A stretch of 64,000 nucleotides of DNA from the NCBI GenBank assembly GCA_021811735.1, contig JAJZNK010000025.1, positions 69,400 to 133,399 of the forward strand, written 5' to 3'. The notes beneath the pieces were generated by a model, which was not told the origin of the DNA, searched no databases, and saw only the letters and a program-made list of their open reading frames with translations. A program made the position numbers and the translations under genes. Shown in pieces: positions 6,518 through 42,763 of this stretch; the first letter of the stretch is position 1; every line of letters begins with the position of its first letter. The DNA is from Nanobdellota archaeon. Its GTDB lineage: Archaea > Nanobdellota > Nanobdellia > Parvarchaeales > Parvarchaeaceae.

Positions 6518-7267
6518 ATGATAAAATATACGCTTTATTTAGATGCAAGTGGTGACTTTGGTTGGAGACCTCCTTATGGCAATAGTCAGTCTAAATTTTA
6601 TGTACTTGCTGGTTTAGCTCTCACACCAGAAGCCGAGTATAAAGCAAAAACAGAACTGCCAAATATAGTGGATAAATATTTTACATCTAAACCTAAGGAA
6701 TTGAAATATACCTACATAATTTCAAATAAAATAGAACCTTTCAAATCTTTAGATGAAAATCAGCGTAAGGCATTGTCTGATGATATCTTTACTCTAATCT
6801 TAGAGATGTCCCCTATATTATTCGCTACGGTTGTTGATAAAGAGAAGTTAAAAGAAAGATATGGAGATAGAGCATATGACCCAAAATATTTATCTCTTAT
6901 TTCTACAATCTCTAGGTTTTCAATGATGTTAAAACGGAATTCAGACACGGGGCAGGTTATAATGGATGATGAACATGCTAGAAAGGATAAAGATTTGCAA
7001 AAAACAATACATAAATTACGTGCGAATGACACAATTATTAGAAGTAGGAATTATAACCCTCCTTCTATAGAACGTTTAGAGAGGATTACTAATAGCATTC
7101 TATTTAGCCATTCGGAAGCTAGTGAAGGAATACAGTTAGCAGATTTTATAGCAAAGGTAGTCTGGATTAAATATACACATGCAAAAATTAACAGATTCAT
7201 GCAAATAGAAAAACTTTTTGACCATAATGAATATAGATATTTCGACCCTTGTTTAATACCAAAATAG
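6518..7267 (+). CDS. DUF3800-family protein
   Basis: N-terminal YLDASGDFG (the DESG-like start typical of DUF3800) and C-terminal EGIQLADFIAKV (QxAD-like). 249 aa. First gene inside the inserted element. Confidence 0.5.
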   Translation: MIKYTLYLDASGDFGWRPPYGNSQSKFYVLAGLALTPEAEYKAKTELPNIVDKYFTSKPKELKYTYIISNKIEPFKSLDENQRKALSDDIFTLILEMSPILFATVVDKEKLKERYGDRAYDPKYLSLISTISRFSMMLKRNSDTGQVIMDDEHARKDKDLQKTIHKLRANDTIIRSRNYNPPSIERLERITNSILFSHSEASEGIQLADFIAKVVWIKYTHAKINRFMQIEKLFDHNEYRYFDPCLIPK

Positions 7268-7327
7268 AATAGAAGGAAAGGTGGTTACCTTTCAGCAACC
7301 AACGAGGTCAAGCAACCTCTCCTTTGC

Positions 7328-7954
7328 CTAATGATTCGAATTCTTCGTTAAATTTAAATCTATCCCTAACTCATAAATTGCACTTATTAGCACCGTAATA
7401 TTATAGGCTATTAGCTTGCACAGCAACTCATTAACCTGCGCTATCTGGTTCTTGCTCTTTAGCATAGCACCGAACTTAGCCTTTATGGCAAAGAATGTGG
7501 TCTCCACATTAGATCTCTTGTGGTAATGCTCTAGAAATACCTCTTGATTAAGCTGGAAATAATGGTACATCTTACGCCATAACCACGCCTTACTACCACT
7601 ACGATAATTTGCAACAGTACTCTTCTTGAAAGGAATGTAAGGTACAGCTCCAACAGCATCAACAGCATTGAAATTGGCGAAAGAATTGTAAGCCTTATCC
7701 GCACTCATATTTTGAATGTCAAAGCCTAGTCTTGCGGTTTCATTGACAAGAGGTATAAACTGCGGACTATCCGCACCATGTTCATCGGTTATTACTGCAG
7801 TAGTTACTATATTGGTATTGTTTCCAGTCAAAGCGTGGCACTTGATCCATTTATGCTGTTTGTTTAATTTGTGCTTTATGTTGCAGTATTCGCTGAACTG
7901 AGTTGTCTCGAATCCCGTAGAATCCACACTAAAACTAGTCTCTACCGATTTCAA
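7328..7954 (-). pseudogene. IS5-family (IS4/IS5 DDE) transposase, N-terminally truncated remnant
   Basis: SVDSTGF (first D of DDE), ADKAY, and the C-terminal HYHKRSNVETTFFAIKAKFG signature of the IS5 family. Only 208 aa; the N-terminal DNA-binding region is missing and no in-frame upstream continuation exists. Confidence 0.6.
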
Positions 7955-8251
7955 ATGCCAAATCTGTGGGACGCAGTTAAAGAAAGAAGGCTGGTCTGCG
8001 GAAATGTCCAGAATAAAAAATGGGGTTATCTATATGCAGAAACTGCGCATATAAAGAATATATCGCATTTCCCCCGATATGATGTGAAGGAGAATATGTT
8101 GTGTTTGTGCGCAAATTGCCATAAAAACTTAGATAATAAAATTTATAAATTATCCGAATCAAGCGGTAGATTCGTATGTGATGACATAATCAGCCATGTA
8201 AATTATAGTCTTGATGTAAAACCACAGCATGAATTGACTTTATTCCCGTAG
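7871..8251 (+). pseudogene. HNH endonuclease fragment
   Basis: HFPRYDVKENMLCLCANCHKNLDN resembles the HNH beta-beta-alpha motif. Short, no convincing N-terminal domain, overlaps the transposase remnant. Confidence 0.3.
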
Positions 8252-8267
8252 TTAGTGGATGCGCCTC

Positions 8268-8615
8268 ATAACTCATGTTCCCATATTCTTACAACAGTCC
8301 AGCCTCCATCTTTCAAGGTTTTGGACACTTTTTCATCACGCACCTTATTTTTCTTTATTTTATTATCCAATAAATGGCATTGCTTTTCGGCCTTTTAAAA
8401 TGCCTAGGACATGCATGCCAGAAGCAACCATCTATGAAAACAGCGATTTTGTGCTTTTTATCAGCAAAGTCAGGATGCCCATATATACCTTCAGGATGGA
8501 AGACGAATCCTAGGCGCTTTAATATGTGCTTAAGGTGCTGTTCCGGAGCAGTGTTTTTGTTTTTTATCCTAGACATAGTATAACTTCTTTGTTTTTTTGT
8601 AAGATTATCAACCAT
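8268..8615 (-). pseudogene. vsr: Very-short-patch-repair endonuclease (Vsr), frameshifted
   Basis: N-terminal ORF (8355-8615) has RSYTMSRIKNKNTAPE...GHPDF...AVFIDGCFWHACPRHF...SNAIYWIIK and then stops. After a 1-nt frame change in an A/T run around 8350-8358, the next frame continues KNKVRDEKVSKTLKDGGWTVVRIWEHEL*, which matches the Vsr C-terminus. No partner Dcm methyltransferase is seen. Confidence 0.65.
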
Positions 8616-8766
8616 TATTTTATAAATAATTGAAGTAATTAATATCTGTTACGATGAAGCTGCAGCCCTGAACGGTTACAAGATATAGTAAGGTAAGGAT
8701 TAAGTAGCTAAATTTATTAGTAAAGCCATCTAGATAATAATATGAAATACCGTATAACCTATATAA

Positions 8767-9300
8767 TTGGATTTGGAAAGTTCGCTAATTGATATGGACA
8801 TATTAACTATATTGGGACAGGTCGGTCCGCTAATTTTAGCAACAGCAACTGCATTCATGGCTTATTTTACATATCTAGTCGTAAAAGAAGGTCGTAAACA
8901 AGATAATGTGCGTTTCTTAGAGAAGAGTCTCGAAGAGTTTTATGAACCATTAATAAATACTTTAAGAAATGGCCCATATTACGGTATAATGGATAAGGAT
9001 TTAAGTGAAGTAATACGCATTTTTATAAGCAAAAGATATTTGTGCAGTGCACAACTTGCGAATATACTGCCTTATACTGTAACTGATGTGTTTAGCGGTA
9101 CTCCTGTTTCAAGCATTGACAAGGGAACTGTATATACTTTTACAAAAGAAGAAGATTTTGATAAATGGAGACATGCTGCTGATAAGATATGGGAAGAGTA
9201 CTTAGAGAAAATAGAAGAATACTCAAAATCAGTGGGAACAACAATAGATATAAGTAAATTTAGTAAGCCAAGTTGGGCATCTCTGAAGCTAAAAAAGTAA
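8767..9300 (+). CDS. Hypothetical protein with an N-terminal TM helix
   Basis: 177-aa ORF; hydrophobic segment ILTILGQVGPLILATATAFMAYFTYLVV; no recognisable domain. Confidence 0.4.
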   Translation: MDLESSLIDMDILTILGQVGPLILATATAFMAYFTYLVVKEGRKQDNVRFLEKSLEEFYEPLINTLRNGPYYGIMDKDLSEVIRIFISKRYLCSAQLANILPYTVTDVFSGTPVSSIDKGTVYTFTKEEDFDKWRHAADKIWEEYLEKIEEYSKSVGTTIDISKFSKPSWASLKLKK

Positions 9301-9357: not shown

Positions 9358-9434
9358 GTGACTTTATTAGCAACTCGTCCTACTTTATTAGCAACTCGTC
9401 CTACTTTATTAGCAATGAGACTTTGTTAGCAAAG
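9358..9434. repeat. Tandem direct repeats: 21-bp unit ACTTTATTAGCAACTCGTCCT x2.5, then ACTTTGTTAGCAAAG; core ACTTTRTTAGCAA x4 at 9361, 9382, 9403, 9420
   Basis: Read directly. A related copy GACTTTATTAGCAAACTG lies at 6488-6505 near the left end of the element. The array lies 55-130 bp upstream of the RHH gene start (9489). Confidence 0.6.
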
Positions 9435-9488
9435 CCTCAGCTATAGAAAAGTATTTATACTTATAATTATATATAATTATTAGTAATT

Positions 9489-9710
9489 ATGGAAGAACAA
9501 AAATTTACAACAGTTTCAATACCAAAACCGTTAGCGGACAAGGTAAAAAAGTTTACAGAGAAAACAGGTTTTACTTCTCTTTCCAGTTTCGTTGAATATC
9601 TTCTGAGGGAGATAATATCCGAAAGTAAGGAAGAAAAAATTGGAAAAACAGAAAAAGACGAAAGAGTTCTTGATTTGGAGGACAAATTAAGAAGATTGGG
9701 GTATATGTAG
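9489..9710 (+). CDS. Ribbon-helix-helix (CopG/Arc-like) DNA-binding protein
   Basis: TTVSIPKPLADKVKKFTEKTGFTSLSSFVEYLLREII fits the RHH beta-strand + two-helix pattern. 73 aa; ends ...DKLRRLGYM. Confidence 0.6.
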   Translation: MEEQKFTTVSIPKPLADKVKKFTEKTGFTSLSSFVEYLLREIISESKEEKIGKTEKDERVLDLEDKLRRLGYM

Positions 9711-9719
9711 GAGGTAACA

Positions 9720-10550
9720 ATGGAAAATAAAGAATATTCGGTTAAAAAACAGAGGATAGAAGGAGGGCTGAGCTTAGCTACAAAGGAAGAAATCGCTTTG
9801 GCGGTCATAAAGGACGCATTGAAAAGATATACCAGGCCAACAGTAGTGTGGAGTGCTGGAAAGGACAGCACAGTTGTTTTGGATCTTGTTAAAAGGGCGT
9901 GTAAGGACCTTGGAATGCAACTTCCTCCTGCGCTTTTTATAGATCATGGGCAGCATTATGATGAAACGATGAAGATGCTTGAGGATATAAGCAAGGAATG
10001 GGGCTTCAAAGTGATATATGCAAAAAACGAAGACGTACTGAAAAATGTTGGTAAAAATAACAAGATAAAGTTCAGTGATATGAACAAGTTAAACCAAGAC
10101 GAAGCAAGAAGGATAGGTTTCGATGGGGACGAATTTGAATATAGCCTTGAGACTGAGGTTGGAAATCATCTGTTGAAAACCGTCGCAATGAATCTTTTTG
10201 TAGAAAAGTACAGGTTTGACGCTCTTTTCACTGGTGTAAGGTGGGATGAAAATGAGGCCAGGTCAATGGAGGTCTTCATAAGCCCAAGAAGCCATCCAGA
10301 TCACGTAAGAGTGCAGCCTATACTTCCCTTCACCGAAAGAAACGTATGGGAATACATGTTTAAGTACAATCTTCCAGTTCATCCACTCTATAAATTAGGA
10401 TACAGATCGATTGACGGAAAGCTTGATTCTAAAAAAACAAGTGATTTGCCTGCATGGGAACAGGATCTTGAGCACACGAAGGAGAGAGCAGGAAGATCAC
10501 AAGATAAAGAGGGAGTAATGGAAAAGCTAAGGCTTTTCGGTTACATGTAA
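9720..10550 (+). CDS. PAPS-reductase-family PP-loop ATP pyrophosphatase (CysH/DndC-like fold) lacking the C-terminal catalytic Cys
   Basis: PP-loop VVWSAGKDSTVVLDLV; FTGVRWDENEARS; ILPFTERNVWEYMFKYNLPVHPLYKLGYRSIDG (CysH-like W...Y...GY.SIG); ERAGR. No ECGLH-type Cys; ends ...EKLRLFGYM. An RBS-like GGAGGT precedes it, 9 nt after the RHH stop. Confidence 0.65.
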   Translation: MENKEYSVKKQRIEGGLSLATKEEIALAVIKDALKRYTRPTVVWSAGKDSTVVLDLVKRACKDLGMQLPPALFIDHGQHYDETMKMLEDISKEWGFKVIYAKNEDVLKNVGKNNKIKFSDMNKLNQDEARRIGFDGDEFEYSLETEVGNHLLKTVAMNLFVEKYRFDALFTGVRWDENEARSMEVFISPRSHPDHVRVQPILPFTERNVWEYMFKYNLPVHPLYKLGYRSIDGKLDSKKTSDLPAWEQDLEHTKERAGRSQDKEGVMEKLRLFGYM

Positions 10551-10551
10551 A

Positions 10552-10950
10552 ATGGAAAAATTATTGGATATCTGCTTCGATAGTGAGATAGCATCTTCCT
10601 CAAAAAAGCATTACACTTACAACATATGCGACAATGGGAAAAGAATGGCTTTTTTCTATCCTCACTCATATGATAGAGGCTTCATAAATTCCGTGGACAG
10701 AATACTTTCAAAAATCTACAAGATGGAGAGAAGTCTATTCGGGCGCGTTAAAGCGGATGAATACTCTATAGTCGTGCCAGATGGGAAGAAGGCAGATGAG
10801 CTCTATGAATATATAAAAGACCTGAATTCGAAAATAATTACACATTATACAGAATCTGGGTTTATCGACACACCTTATCTTAGCAAAAGAAAGAGGGATA
10901 TACTGGAAAACAAACTCAGTATAGTGCTTACACCTTGTTGTAACAGATAA
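10552..10950 (+). CDS. Hypothetical protein, third gene of the RHH/PAPS-reductase-like operon
   Basis: 132 aa; starts 2 nt after the previous stop; no recognisable motif; C-terminal ...TPCCNR. Confidence 0.4.
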   Translation: MEKLLDICFDSEIASSSKKHYTYNICDNGKRMAFFYPHSYDRGFINSVDRILSKIYKMERSLFGRVKADEYSIVVPDGKKADELYEYIKDLNSKIITHYTESGFIDTPYLSKRKRDILENKLSIVLTPCCNR

Positions 10951-10991: not shown

Positions 10992-11088
10992 GGCCTAGTA
11001 GCTTAGCCCGGTGGAGCACTGCTCTTATAAGAGTTTGCTCTAACATTAAGTAAAGCAGGGGTCGGGAGTCCAAATCTCCCCTAGGCCA
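10992..11088 (+). tRNA. tRNA-Ile (anticodon UAU) with a 23-nt intron after position 37
   Basis: Acceptor GGCCTAG/CTAGGCC (7 bp), D-arm GCTT..GAGC, anticodon stem CTGCT/AGCAG, loop CTTATA|intron AGAGTTTGCTCTAACATTAAGTA|A, T-arm GGGAG-TCCAAAT-CTCCC, discriminator A. Anticodon read as TAT. Folded by hand. Confidence 0.55.
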
Positions 11089-11622: not shown

Positions 11623-11760
11623 ATGGCAAAATTCGAAAGAAGAATGTATAAAGCTGTATGCTCTGATTGTGGGAAAGAAACGGAAGTTCCTTTTCAGCCA
11701 CAGGACGGCAGACCAGTTTACTGTAGAGAATGCTATAGCAAGAGAAAGGGAACTCAGTAA
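11623..11760 (+). CDS. Small zinc-ribbon protein (CxxC-x17-CxxC), 45 aa; absent from the ORF track because it is under 60 aa
   Basis: ATG at 11623 preceded by AGGAGGAAT; MAKFERRMYKAVCSDCGKETEVPFQPQDGRPVYCRECYSKRKGTQ*; two CxxC pairs. Confidence 0.5.
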   Translation: MAKFERRMYKAVCSDCGKETEVPFQPQDGRPVYCRECYSKRKGTQ

Positions 11761-41704: not shown

Positions 41705-42763
41705 TCAGTTTACATTCTTTACTTCTTCAAGAAAAAGTTTTTTGAATTTTCCCATATCTTTATAAGCTATAGATCCACCAGAGGCTTTGTCATGTCCGCC
41801 GCCTTCTCCATTCATCTTGCTGAATATACTCTGGAGTATTACCTGAAGGTGTATATCGACGCCGTTTGCCCTCAAGTTGAGACGCATAGTCCTACCATTT
41901 ATTTTTGTCATAAAAACCAAGATGTTGCCATAATACATTTTGTCGAAACTAAGTTCAGTTACAAGTGTCGACGAATACCGCTTCTTTTTAGGGTCTAGTT
42001 CAAAAAAGTATACCTTCCCTATCTTTTCCGCACCGTTTTTAAAGTCATTTTTTAGCTTTTCAAGTTCTTCTCTTACTTTTTTGTCAGCATATATGAACCT
42101 CTGGTTGGTTAACACGTCATTCAAGGACTCTGCATTTATTAGTATACCAAGGGCTTCATCTGCGCCATCTCTGTTATATACAGATGTCATGGATCCAACC
42201 ATACCAGCGGCCTTTCCGAAATCGTTGTCGTACATATATTCATCTTCTCCCAGCTTTATCCCATATCTCTTTGCGGCTTTCGTCACGGCTTCGCCGTTTT
42301 CTTTTCCACCCGAATCCCCTACAAGCCCAATCGTTGACAGCCAATCAAGCTCTCCTATCTCCTTTTCAAAAATATTATACATTAATAATGAACAGGGAGT
42401 ATAGGTATTATCACCCCATACTTTTGGATTTGCATAGGCAAAACCTTCTGCGTTTATTATCTGGTGGTGGTCTATAATGCAAAGATTTTTCTTTTTAAAT
42501 AGGTCAAGCTGAGTTTCTCTTATTTGCATATCACATACTATAATATTTTTGCTATATTCCTGCATGTCAAGTTTTTCATAATCTTCATAGTTCGTCGGCC
42601 TGTAGTAATAAACTCCTTTTTTCATTGTTTTTAGGACGGCTGACAGTAGTGCAGCGCTTACTATTCCATCCGTGTCGAGGTGATAGAAGATAGTGAAATC
42701 ATTGTTTTCCGAAACAAAGTTCCTGACGCTAGCTATGCTCATTTCTTGTTTGTTCGAATCCAT
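41705..42763 (-). CDS. DHH/DHHA1 phosphoesterase (RecJ-like/nanoRNase family)
   Basis: HLDTDGIVSAALL (DxD), IIDHHQ (DHH), C-terminal GEGGGHDKASGG (DHHA1 GGGH); 352 aa. Confidence 0.7.
   Translation of the reverse strand: MDSNKQEMSIASVRNFVSENNDFTIFYHLDTDGIVSAALLSAVLKTMKKGVYYYRPTNYEDYEKLDMQEYSKNIIVCDMQIRETQLDLFKKKNLCIIDHHQIINAEGFAYANPKVWGDNTYTPCSLLMYNIFEKEIGELDWLSTIGLVGDSGGKENGEAVTKAAKRYGIKLGEDEYMYDNDFGKAAGMVGSMTSVYNRDGADEALGILINAESLNDVLTNQRFIYADKKVREELEKLKNDFKNGAEKIGKVYFFELDPKKKRYSSTLVTELSFDKMYYGNILVFMTKINGRTMRLNLRANGVDIHLQVILQSIFSKMNGEGGGHDKASGGSIAYKDMGKFKKLFLEEVKNVN

What the first reader, a model, noticed from the sequence alone, without database searches (positions are those of the whole stretch)
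9489..10950. Uncharacterised three-gene operon: RHH protein, PAPS-reductase-like PP-loop enzyme lacking the catalytic Cys, and an orphan, with a shared C-terminal GYM tail
Seen in sequence: the three ORFs are tightly spaced (gaps 9 and 1 nt). The middle protein has the PAPS-reductase/CysH/DndC-type PP-loop (SAGKDS) and CysH-like C-terminal region (PILPF..NVWEY…PLYKLGYRSIDG…ERAGR). It has no Cys in the last ~200 residues, so it cannot be a thioredoxin-dependent sulfonucleotide reductase. It is more likely an adenylating ATP pyrophosphatase acting on an unknown substrate. Free-standing PAPS-reductase-like enzymes occur in DNA-modification and defence contexts (Dnd phosphorothioation DndC, BREX type 4 BrxP, phage DNA-modification modules). 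The RHH and the enzyme both end in (D/E)KLR(R/L)(L/F)GYM-COOH (…DKLRRLGYM and …EKLRLFGYM). A shared C-terminal tail in adjacent proteins suggests a common docking partner or a local duplication. A penultimate Tyr is reminiscent of, but does not match, the HbYX docking motifs. The operon lies between a decayed mobile and defence island and an intron-containing tRNA-Ile gene, a typical position for horizontally acquired modules.
Basis: partly seen in the sequence, partly recalled or inferred. Interest (0 to 1): 0.65.

Follow-up and report, generated by a model that had tools for sequence, protein, structure and literature searches.

The report
Self-regulated sulfate-activation operon, Parvarchaeum
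The three genes are not a DNA-modification or defence module: they are most likely a small operon for activating sulfate in a tiny acid-mine archaeon, made of a repressor, a CysD-like enzyme that works without its usual G-protein partner, and a small lineage-specific protein, and the tail shared by repressor and enzyme is real, ancient and still unexplained.

Summary
Three tightly packed ORFs sit at 9489-10950. The middle protein has a PP-loop (SAGKDS) and no C-terminal Cys. Both the RHH protein and the enzyme end in LR..GYM.

The defence and DNA-modification reading is not supported. The window comes from a Candidatus Parvarchaeum (ARMAN-like) genome, and the operon sits in a conserved housekeeping block. 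The mobile island upstream is the insertion, not the operon.

Relatives of the RHH protein lie directly upstream of sulfate-activation operons across Archaea: Sat-pApase-APS kinase-sulfotransferase, or CysD-CysN. 84 of 91 such loci carry the same operator, TAATTA-like boxes spaced 10 bp apart between the TATA box and the start codon. In the window these boxes are at 9464-9489.

The enzyme belongs to a CysD-like clade. It lacks the insertion found in every CysN-linked CysD compared. Outside Parvarchaeota it is followed by, or fused to, a sulfatase-like protein with Thr at the nucleophile position, usually inside glycosyltransferase clusters.

The GY[FM] tail is a hallmark of the CysD-like superfamily (112 of 150 representatives). 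The RHH family carries a similar tail of about 16 residues even where Sat replaces CysD. Why they share it remains unknown.

Most likely function: a self-repressed, GTPase-independent ATP:sulfate adenylyltransferase module. It is a new variant of a known kind, of moderate interest.

The parts
9452..9459 (+). TATA-box-like element (TATTTATA) of the operon promoter
   Evidence: Read from the sequence. The block AAAGTATTTATAC is conserved at the same place upstream of the RHH gene in other Parvarchaeota loci. Its role as a promoter is inferred.
9464..9489 (.). Predicted RHH operator: three palindromic TAATTA boxes at exactly 10-bp spacing (9464, 9474, 9484). The last box overlaps the ATG.
   Evidence: TRF reports period 10, 3.1 copies. 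The triple box occurs once in the 64-kb window against 0 expected. 84 of 91 RHH-family loci from many archaeal lineages have at least 3 TA[AG][TC][TG]A boxes upstream, against 4% of shuffles, and 241 of 270 spacings are exactly 10 bp. Binding by the RHH protein is inferred, not shown.
9489..9710 (+). RHH (CopG/Arc/MetJ-type) regulator, 73 aa. Residues 6-40 form the strand-helix-helix core (FTTVSIPKPL...GFTSLSSFVEYLLREI).
   Evidence: Pfam and NCBIfam hits are weak (RHH_1 E 0.027, NikR-like), as is the profile match to the NikR RHH domain. There are 73 homologues. In 80 metagenome loci the gene lies directly upstream of Sat or CysD genes.
9663..9707 (+). C-terminal tail of the RHH protein (residues 59-73, ERVLDLEDKLRRLGYM region)
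   Evidence: L67, L70, G71 and Y72 are invariant in 17 diverse homologues. hhalign aligns this tail to the enzyme tail (16 columns, E 8.6e-4).
9720..10550 (+). CysD-like PP-loop adenylyltransferase, 276 aa (PAPS_reduct fold), CysN-independent type
   Evidence: PF01507 E 9e-32. The best NCBIfam models are CysD, at 104 bits, below the cut-off. The AF2 model has pLDDT 85.7, and its best PDB fold matches are APS reductase, FAD synthase and CysD. Homologues are 60-91% identical in Parvarchaeota, Thermoplasmata, Nitrososphaeria and Thermoprotei.
9852..9869 (+). PP-loop SAGKDS (residues 45-50)
   Evidence: Read from the sequence. S45, G47, K48, D49 and S50 are invariant in alignment A1. CysD proteins have the same motif, whereas the best-matching reductase, 4bwv, has no such motif at the aligned position.
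10500..10547 (+). CysD-type C-terminal tail (residues 261-276, QDKEGVMEKLRLFGYM)
   Evidence: The tail ends in GYM in all 120 close homologues. It is present in 112 of 150 superfamily representatives. It aligns to the P. syringae CysD C-terminus. AF2 predicts a low-confidence helix not packed on the core.
10552..10950 (+). Small protein of unknown function, 132 aa. It occupies the slot that holds a sulfatase-like gene in other lineages.
   Evidence: No Pfam, NCBIfam, PADLOC or PDB match. It has 15 homologues; those with a source name or locus title are Parvarchaeota, and in L021 the gene lies directly downstream of the enzyme gene. It is not a sulfatase remnant. AF2 gives pLDDT 71 with no significant fold match.

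Best explanation
This is a self-repressed sulfate-activation operon in a Candidatus Parvarchaeum genome.

The 73-aa RHH protein is the dedicated repressor. It is inferred to bind, as dimers, the three TAATTA boxes spaced one helical turn apart between the TATA box and its own start codon, and so to control the whole operon.

The 276-aa protein is a CysD-type PP-loop enzyme. It is inferred to use ATP to adenylylate sulfate, giving APS and pyrophosphate, without the CysN G-protein. In related archaea the product is inferred to pass to a sulfatase-like protein with a Thr nucleophile. That protein is encoded next to the enzyme or fused to it, inside glycosyltransferase clusters, which points to sulfation of surface glycans. 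In Parvarchaeum a small lineage-specific protein sits in that slot instead, and its role is unknown.

The GYM tail is the family-wide C-terminal segment of CysD-like enzymes, probably a mobile lid. The RHH family carries a look-alike tail whose purpose has not been established.

Shown here: homology, gene contexts, operator conservation and tail conservation. Inferred: DNA binding, the substrate, and any hand-over of product.
For: 1. Regulator. 73 homologues share the RHH core and the tail. In 80 metagenome loci, the gene right after the RHH gene is Sat (about 50 loci, mostly RHH-Sat-DHH pApase-APS kinase-sulfotransferase) or a PAPS_reduct/CysD gene, often followed by CysN, TauE or APS kinase. 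A paper on Pyrococcus yayanosii already notes a copG gene heading the ATP sulfurylase/pApase/type I phosphodiesterase/APS kinase cluster (PMC8268124).

2. Operator. 10-bp periodic TA[AG][TC][TG]A boxes occur in 84 of 91 loci against 4% of shuffles. The triple box is unique in the window, with 0 expected.

3. Enzyme. It has a full PP-loop. CysD models are its best NCBIfam hits. It has the CysD-type tail. It is 30% identical (E 9e-34) to an archaeal CysD that is paired with CysN next to AglB.

4. GTPase independence. No CysN, Sat or CysC gene lies within 6 kb in any of 76 loci, or anywhere in the window. The window family and all fusion proteins compared lack the ~23-aa insertion present in every CysN-linked CysD compared.

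5. Partner. A sulfatase-like gene lies nearby in 36 of 76 loci, directly downstream in about 18 and fused in 6. Many 640-850-aa fusions are found in the representative library. The partner has T-x-P-x-H where sulfatases have C/S-x-P-x-R. Sulfatase-like Agl30 and Agl31 act as N-glycan sulfotransferases in Halobacterium (PMC11980604).

6. Same slot. A syntenic DPANN locus has RHH, a different PAPS_reduct subfamily, and a sulfatase-like gene.
Against: - No biochemistry exists for this clade. The enzyme scores below the curated CysD cut-offs (104 vs 195 bits).
- By fold it is as close to APS reductase and FAD synthase as to CysD.
- It has a family-specific insertion of about 35 residues (roughly 105-145) that CysD lacks. 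This could bind an acceptor larger than sulfate.
- APS synthesis is thermodynamically unfavourable without GTP hydrolysis or a coupled consumer (established knowledge of CysDN). In Parvarchaeum no consumer is encoded nearby: no sulfatase-like gene, APS kinase or sulfotransferase is found in the 64-kb window.
- Some Thermoplasmatales that gained a 'PAPS reductase' also carry a Sat (PMC10354927), which would make a second sulfurylase redundant.
- A Thr nucleophile is typical of phosphodiester-handling members of the alkaline phosphatase superfamily.
Confidence: 0.62

Rival explanations
1. The enzyme adenylylates something other than sulfate, such as a phosphorylated sugar, alcohol or cofactor (as FMN adenylyltransferase does). 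The Thr-type alkaline-phosphatase-family partner then transfers the phospho-group onto a glycan or lipid. The RHH link to sulfate operons would then reflect only shared regulation.
For: Fold and sequence similarity to FAD synthase is as strong as to CysD. A ~35-residue family-specific insertion is absent from CysD. The partner's nucleophile is Thr, as in phosphodiesterases and phospho-transferases of the superfamily (superfamily knowledge). Glycosyltransferase and GDP-mannose dehydratase genes are neighbours.
Against: The gene occupies the position, right behind the same regulator and operator, that Sat or CysD-CysN occupies elsewhere. It has the CysD-type tail. The partner is closest in sequence to S1 sulfatases (E 5e-35). 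Sulfatase-like proteins are the known archaeal glycan sulfotransferases.
Confidence: 0.17
2. The enzyme consumes APS or PAPS made elsewhere rather than making it. It would be a Cys-less reductase-like protein that hands the sulfo group to the sulfatase-like partner or to an external thiol.
For: The best structural and PDB sequence hits include APS/PAPS reductases. Some carriers also encode Sat.
Against: The canonical SxGKDS PP-loop is invariant, whereas the best-matching reductase, 4bwv, has no such motif at the aligned position. No Cys is conserved anywhere. NCBIfam reductase models score lower than CysD models.
Confidence: 0.08
3. One reading: a DNA-modification or anti-phage module of the DndC or BrxP type, acquired horizontally.
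For: The enzyme belongs to the PAPS_reduct superfamily. A partial BrxP model hit covers residues 26-104 (E 2e-11). A decayed mobile island lies upstream.
Against: DndC models are not significant. No Dnd, BREX, ParB or methylase gene appears in any of 76 loci. The chromosomal position among housekeeping genes is conserved. The regulator family is tied to sulfate activation.
Confidence: 0.03

Closest known systems
CysD, the catalytic subunit of the CysD-CysN GTP-regulated ATP sulfurylase (e.g. Pseudomonas syringae, PDB 1zun)
   Same: PAPS_reduct fold, SxGKDS PP-loop, ERxGR motif and the terminal M.x(L/K)(R/K)x.GY[FM] tail. CysD models are the best-scoring curated models.
   Different: About 25-35% identity. 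It scores below the curated cut-offs. It has no CysN partner and lacks the insertion shared by CysN-linked CysDs. It lacks the LGCxPCT motif and has YRSIDGKxDS instead. It carries its own ~35-residue insertion. It is typically paired or fused with a sulfatase-like protein.
Archaeal copG / ATP sulfurylase / DHH pApase / type I phosphodiesterase / APS kinase gene cluster (Pyrococcus yayanosii PYCH_17520-17560; PMC8268124)
   Same: A small RHH (copG) gene heads a sulfate-activation operon. An alkaline-phosphatase-superfamily gene accompanies the sulfurylase.
   Different: Here the sulfurylase slot holds a CysD-like enzyme, not Sat. There is no APS kinase or pApase in the operon. The operator and the CysD-like tail of the regulator are not mentioned in the parts of that paper I read (term searches only).
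Agl30 and Agl31 of Halobacterium salinarum, sulfatase-like N-glycan sulfotransferases (PMC11980604)
   Same: Sulfatase-like alkaline-phosphatase-superfamily proteins encoded in glycosylation clusters. This is the same kind of protein that follows, or is fused to, the enzyme in other lineages.
   Different: No such gene is present in this window. The partners seen here have Thr in place of the formylglycine Cys/Ser. The active-site residues of Agl30 and Agl31 were not compared. The sulfate donor was not found by term searches of that paper, nor in its discussion.
Tail mimicry on CysK: the C-terminal peptide of serine acetyltransferase CysE, copied by the CdiA toxin, plugs into the CysK active site (recalled from memory, not checked here)
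   Same: A precedent in sulfur metabolism for unrelated proteins sharing a short C-terminal peptide in order to dock on one enzyme.
   Different: Different motif (GDGI/GYGI) and different enzymes. No docking has been shown for the LGY[MFL] tail.

Membership tests
CysD (sulfate adenylyltransferase subunit 2) | PAPS_reduct domain with an intact SGGKDS-type PP-loop | tested here: met
   PF01507 E 9e-32. SAGKDS at residues 45-50 is invariant in the clade.
CysD (sulfate adenylyltransferase subunit 2) | Score above the curated NCBIfam/TIGRFAM CysD cut-offs | tested here: not met
   PRK05253 scores 104 bits against a cut-off of 195. TIGR02039 scores 78 against 397.
CysD (sulfate adenylyltransferase subunit 2) | C-terminal ERxGR ... 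M.x(L/K)(R/K)..GY[FM]-COOH segment | tested here: met
   It aligns to the 1zun C-terminus and to archaeal CysDs. It is present in 112 of 150 representatives.
CysD (sulfate adenylyltransferase subunit 2) | Partnership with the EF-Tu-like GTPase CysN, and the insertion shared by CysN-linked CysDs | tested here: not met
   No CysN gene lies within 6 kb in 76 loci, or in the window. The insertion F.W..K.Q..E.WD.Y is absent.
CysD (sulfate adenylyltransferase subunit 2) | Catalyses ATP + sulfate -> APS + PPi | not testable with these tools
   Requires an enzyme assay.
(P)APS reductase CysH | Catalytic Cys in the C-terminal ECG(L/I)H tail | tested here: not met
   The only Cys is at residue 61 and it is not conserved.
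(P)APS reductase CysH | Score above the curated reductase cut-offs | tested here: not met
   PRK02090 scores 72.7 against 154. TIGR00434 scores 60 against 165.
DndC / BrxP (DNA phosphorothioation, BREX type 4) | Full-length match to DndC or BrxP models, with Dnd or BREX partner genes nearby | tested here: not met
   TIGR03183 scores 15 bits against 290. The BrxP match covers only residues 26-104 of a 779-position model. No partner genes appear in 76 loci.
FMN adenylyltransferase (eukaryotic FAD1 type) | PAPS_reduct fold with a flavin-binding region and FAD synthesis | tested here: inconclusive
   Fold and sequence similarity are present (8ron, 3g5a) but no stronger than to CysD. No flavin-pathway neighbours were found.
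RHH (CopG-type) regulators that head archaeal sulfate-activation operons | RHH DNA-binding core | tested here: inconclusive
   Pfam RHH_1 E 0.027, below the cut-off. The profile match to the NikR RHH domain has E 0.07. Sources name the homologues as RHH/CopG.
RHH (CopG-type) regulators that head archaeal sulfate-activation operons | Located directly upstream of the sulfate adenylyltransferase gene, behind 10-bp periodic TAATTA-like boxes | tested here: met
   In the window the boxes are at 9464, 9474 and 9484.

The most novel reading that the evidence does not exclude
The ~16-residue tail is a docking or lid peptide that the repressor copied from the enzyme family. In the enzyme it would close over the active site. 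On the repressor it would let the protein sense the same ligand (APS or sulfate), or plug into the adenylyltransferase, so that the enzyme's occupancy feeds back directly on transcription. This would be a tail-mimicry circuit like CysE/CdiA on CysK. Together with the Thr-type sulfatase-like partner, the clade would define a sulfation route for archaeal glycans that needs neither GTP nor an APS kinase.
Probability: 0.15. Interest if true: 0.75.

Novelty: new variant of a known kind. Interest (0 to 1): 0.48.

Why it matters
- It removes a candidate defence system from the list and replaces it with a concrete metabolic assignment.
- It predicts a widespread archaeal regulator-operator pair for sulfate activation: an RHH protein plus TAATTA boxes at 10-bp spacing. 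This can be tested directly by gel shift.
- It points to a CysD-like clade that has dispensed with the CysN G-protein and is repeatedly fused to sulfatase-like proteins. That offers a testable route to an open question: how archaeal sulfatase-like sulfotransferases such as Agl30 and Agl31 obtain activated sulfate.
- The tail shared by an enzyme family and its repressor family is an unexplained feature that deserves a structural look.

Tried and rejected
- **The 132-aa ORF as a decayed sulfatase gene.** No similarity to four sulfatase-like partners (tblastn and blastp). Rejected.
- **Tail identity caused by a recent DNA duplication or a shared nucleotide element.** The codons differ at synonymous sites. 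Rejected.
- **The RHH protein as CdrS, the cell-division regulator.** Only a weak NCBIfam hit (E 0.022). CdrS is linked to ftsZ2 and is reported absent from DPANN. Rejected.
- **HbYX proteasome docking.** The same tail is found in bacterial CysD (most bacteria have no proteasome, from memory). Unlikely, but not testable here.
- **The tail as a CysN-docking element.** CysN-less enzymes and all fusions compared keep the tail, while a different insertion tracks with CysN. Rejected.
- **Fold assignment of the small protein.** No PDB fold match better than E 0.02. No Pfam or PDB profile hit.
- **Literature.** Searches for this clade, or for an RHH/PAPS-reductase pair, found nothing specific.
Full report
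**1. Checking the observation**

An SD-like GGAGGT precedes the second gene.

The middle protein matches PF01507 (E 9e-32). It has SAGKDS at residues 45-50, and its single Cys is at residue 61. The two C-termini read ...DLEDKLRRLGYM and ...GVMEKLRLFGYM.

The tail is not a common ending. Among 76 plausible genes in the window only these two end in GY[MLIVF], and L[RK]..GY[MLIVF] occurs in no other window protein. Among 868 genes in 76 related loci, only two unrelated genes end this way. The two tails use different synonymous codons.

**2. Origin and setting**

The closest homologues (89-91% identity) come from Candidatus Parvarchaeum (ARMAN-4/5) and related acid-mine bins.

The flanking genes are housekeeping genes: thermosome, LSM, HAD hydrolase, Trp/Tyr-tRNA synthetase, then LysRS, MgtC, a GT4 glycosyltransferase and a Hel308-like helicase. 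Their order is shared with other Parvarchaeota loci.

Only the stretch 6518-9300 is variable. It holds a DUF3800 gene, a transposase fragment, a truncated Vsr and an AF_0924-like gene. So the island is the insertion, and the operon is resident.

**3. The regulator**

The 73-aa protein has 73 homologues with an invariant core, FTTVSIP...TGFTS.SS.V..LRE, and an invariant L..LGY near the C-terminus. Its RHH nature rests on weak model hits and on a NikR-like profile match.

The contexts of its relatives are decisive:
- In Bathyarchaeota it precedes Sat, a type I phosphodiesterase and APS kinase.
- In another archaeon it precedes CysD and a CysN-like GTPase, next to AglB and GT4 genes.
- In a DPANN locus syntenic with this window it precedes a different PAPS_reduct subfamily and a sulfatase-like gene.

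A metagenome scan found at least 397 loci. Of the 80 fetched, about 50 show RHH-Sat, mostly followed by a DHH phosphoesterase, APS kinase and a sulfotransferase. About a dozen show RHH-CysD, with CysN, TauE or APS kinase. A paper on the Pyrococcus yayanosii pAp phosphatase already lists a putative copG regulator at the head of such a cluster (PMC8268124).

**4. A conserved operator**

Between a TATA-like box and the RHH start codon, the related loci carry three to five TA[AG][TC][TG]A boxes. 84 of 91 loci have at least three, against 4% of shuffled controls. 241 of 270 successive spacings are exactly 10 bp.

The window has TAATTA at 9464, 9474 and 9484. The last box overlaps the ATG, and TATTTATA lies at 9452-9459. 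This triple box occurs once in 64 kb, with none expected.

Tandem sites one helical turn apart over the core promoter are what RHH repressors typically use (general knowledge). Binding itself has not been shown.

**5. The enzyme**

The best curated models are CysD, but the scores fall below their cut-offs. Reductase models score lower, and DndC is not significant. PADLOC gives only a partial BrxP hit over the PP-loop region.

The AF2 model is confident (pLDDT 85.7) except for residues 254-276, a floppy helix. By fold it matches APS/PAPS reductases, FAD synthase and CysD about equally.

Three features place it with CysD-like adenylyltransferases rather than with reductases:
- the intact SxGKDS loop, which the best-matching reductase, 4bwv, lacks at the aligned position;
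- the absence of any conserved Cys;
- the C-terminal segment ERAGRSQDKEGVMEKLRLFGYM, which aligns to ...[24 protein letters not shown] of P. syringae CysD and to archaeal CysDs.

It differs from true CysD in three ways. It lacks the ~23-residue insertion (F.W..K.Q..E.WD.Y) found in every CysN-linked CysD compared. It has no CysN, Sat or APS kinase gene within 6 kb in any of 76 loci. It carries its own ~35-residue insertion.

**6. The usual partner**

The clade is patchy and mostly found in archaea from acidic habitats: Parvarchaeota, Thermoplasmata including Oxyplasma, Nitrososphaeria, Conexivisphaera, Thermocladium and Vulcanisaeta. Identities between phyla are 60-73%.

Outside Parvarchaeota the gene is followed, often with overlapping stop and start codons, by a ~450-aa sulfatase/phosphodiesterase-family gene. 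Alternatively it is fused to one, with the sulfatase-like domain at the N-terminus and the tail still at the extreme C-terminus. Fusions of 640-850 aa are frequent in the representative library.

The neighbours are GT4 and GT2 glycosyltransferases and GDP-mannose dehydratase.

In sequence the partner is closest to S1 sulfatases (E 5e-35). However, it has T-x-P-x-H where sulfatases have C/S-x-P-x-R, so it cannot form formylglycine.

Sulfatase-like Agl30 and Agl31 have been shown genetically, and by transfer into Haloferax, to sulfate N-glycans in Halobacterium. The sulfate donor was not found by term searches of that paper, nor in its discussion (PMC11980604).

A CysD-like activator coupled to a sulfatase-like transferase is therefore a coherent model. 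Each step of it remains inferred.

**7. The third gene**

It is not a sulfatase remnant. It has 15 homologues, and those carrying a source name or a locus title are Parvarchaeota. In L021 the gene lies directly downstream of the enzyme gene. The family diverges quickly, at 15-30% identity.

No family, solved structure or fold matches it. Some Parvarchaeota lack it. One has a sulfatase-like gene upstream and no RHH gene (L020).

**8. The tail**

In the enzyme superfamily, M.xLRxLGY[FMWLI]-COOH ends 112 of the best 150 representatives, including all the long fusions examined. Most of the remaining 38 are short sequences without the tail and are probably incomplete.

In the RHH family the consensus is EDEExVKxRLRALGY[LIM], with or without one more residue. 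A profile-profile comparison of the two full-length alignments picks out exactly these tails: 16 columns, E 8.6e-4, probability only 24% because the match is short.

The RHH protein keeps the tail where Sat replaces CysD. The enzymes keep it with or without CysN. So the tail is neither a CysN-docking device nor a local duplication.

In the CysDN crystal only 204 of 325 CysD residues are modelled, so the structure does not settle where the tail goes.

Possible explanations are:
- a mobile lid, like the Cys-bearing tail of CysH, that the repressor copied;
- a common docking peptide;
- a membrane-targeting helix;
- a generic helix cap; the APS kinases of these operons end in ...LEEQGYIK.

None of these was tested.

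**9. Verdict**

The defence and DNA-modification interpretation is not supported.

The best-supported reading is a self-repressed sulfate-activation operon built around a G-protein-independent CysD-like adenylyltransferase (confidence about 0.6). The main rival is adenylylation of a different acceptor.

This is a new variant of a known kind. The general theme (a copG gene plus sulfate activation in archaea) is already in the literature. I found no description of the operator, of the CysN-less clade fused to Thr-type sulfatase-like proteins, or of the tail shared by enzyme and repressor.

Noticed in passing
window 9361-9415 (plus a degenerate copy at 9420-9433): A perfect 21-bp tandem repeat, ACTTTATTAGCAACTCGTCCT x2.6, lies upstream of the operon promoter. 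Related ACTTT(A/G)TTAGCA repeats occur upstream of the RHH gene in L009, L016 and L019. It could be a second regulator's site or a scar of a mobile element.
   Followed up: partly
window 10992-11088 (+): A 97-nt tRNA gene found by Rfam (50.8 bits) but missed by ARAGORN. By eye, the anticodon loop CTTATA is followed by an intron of about 23 nt, giving tRNA-Ile(UAU). That is an unusual way for an archaeon to read AUA codons.
   Followed up: partly
window 6518-9300: A variable island holds a DUF3800 protein, a DDE transposase fragment, an HNH-like ORF, a truncated Vsr endonuclease (86 aa) and an AF_0924-family protein. Other Parvarchaeota have two unrelated small ORFs at this spot.
   Followed up: partly
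L026:6795-8165, L082:6082-7410 and other partners (alignment A2): The sulfatase-family proteins next to, or fused with, the enzyme have T-x-P-x-H in place of the formylglycine motif C/S-x-P-x-R, though they are closest to S1 sulfatases in sequence.
   Followed up: partly
L080, L101, L149, L086, L119 versus the window enzyme: Every CysD encoded next to a CysN-like GTPase carries a ~23-residue insertion (F.W..K.Q..E.WD.Y) after the FSPR motif. All CysN-less relatives and fusions compared lack it. It is a candidate marker for G-protein coupling.
   Followed up: partly
L108:4477-8059 and about 30 similar metagenome loci: A compact archaeal sulfation operon: RHH, Sat, a DHH phosphoesterase (pAp phosphatase type), APS kinase and a ~195-aa sulfotransferase. 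All sit behind the same 10-bp periodic operator.
   Followed up: partly
L082 / L084 (syntenic DPANN locus): At the same chromosomal position as in the window, the orthologous RHH gene is followed by a different PAPS_reduct subfamily (33% identity, tail ...KLRELGYN) and a sulfatase-like gene. This suggests the enzyme was replaced in situ.
   Followed up: no
window 11623-11760 (+): A 45-aa treble-clef zinc-finger protein (PF23477, E 3e-21) lies between the tRNA and LysRS.
   Followed up: no
window 41705-42763 (-): A DHH/DHHA1 phosphoesterase, 25% identical to the pAp phosphatases of the RHH-Sat operons. It could be the cell's pAp/nanoRNase enzyme.
   Followed up: no
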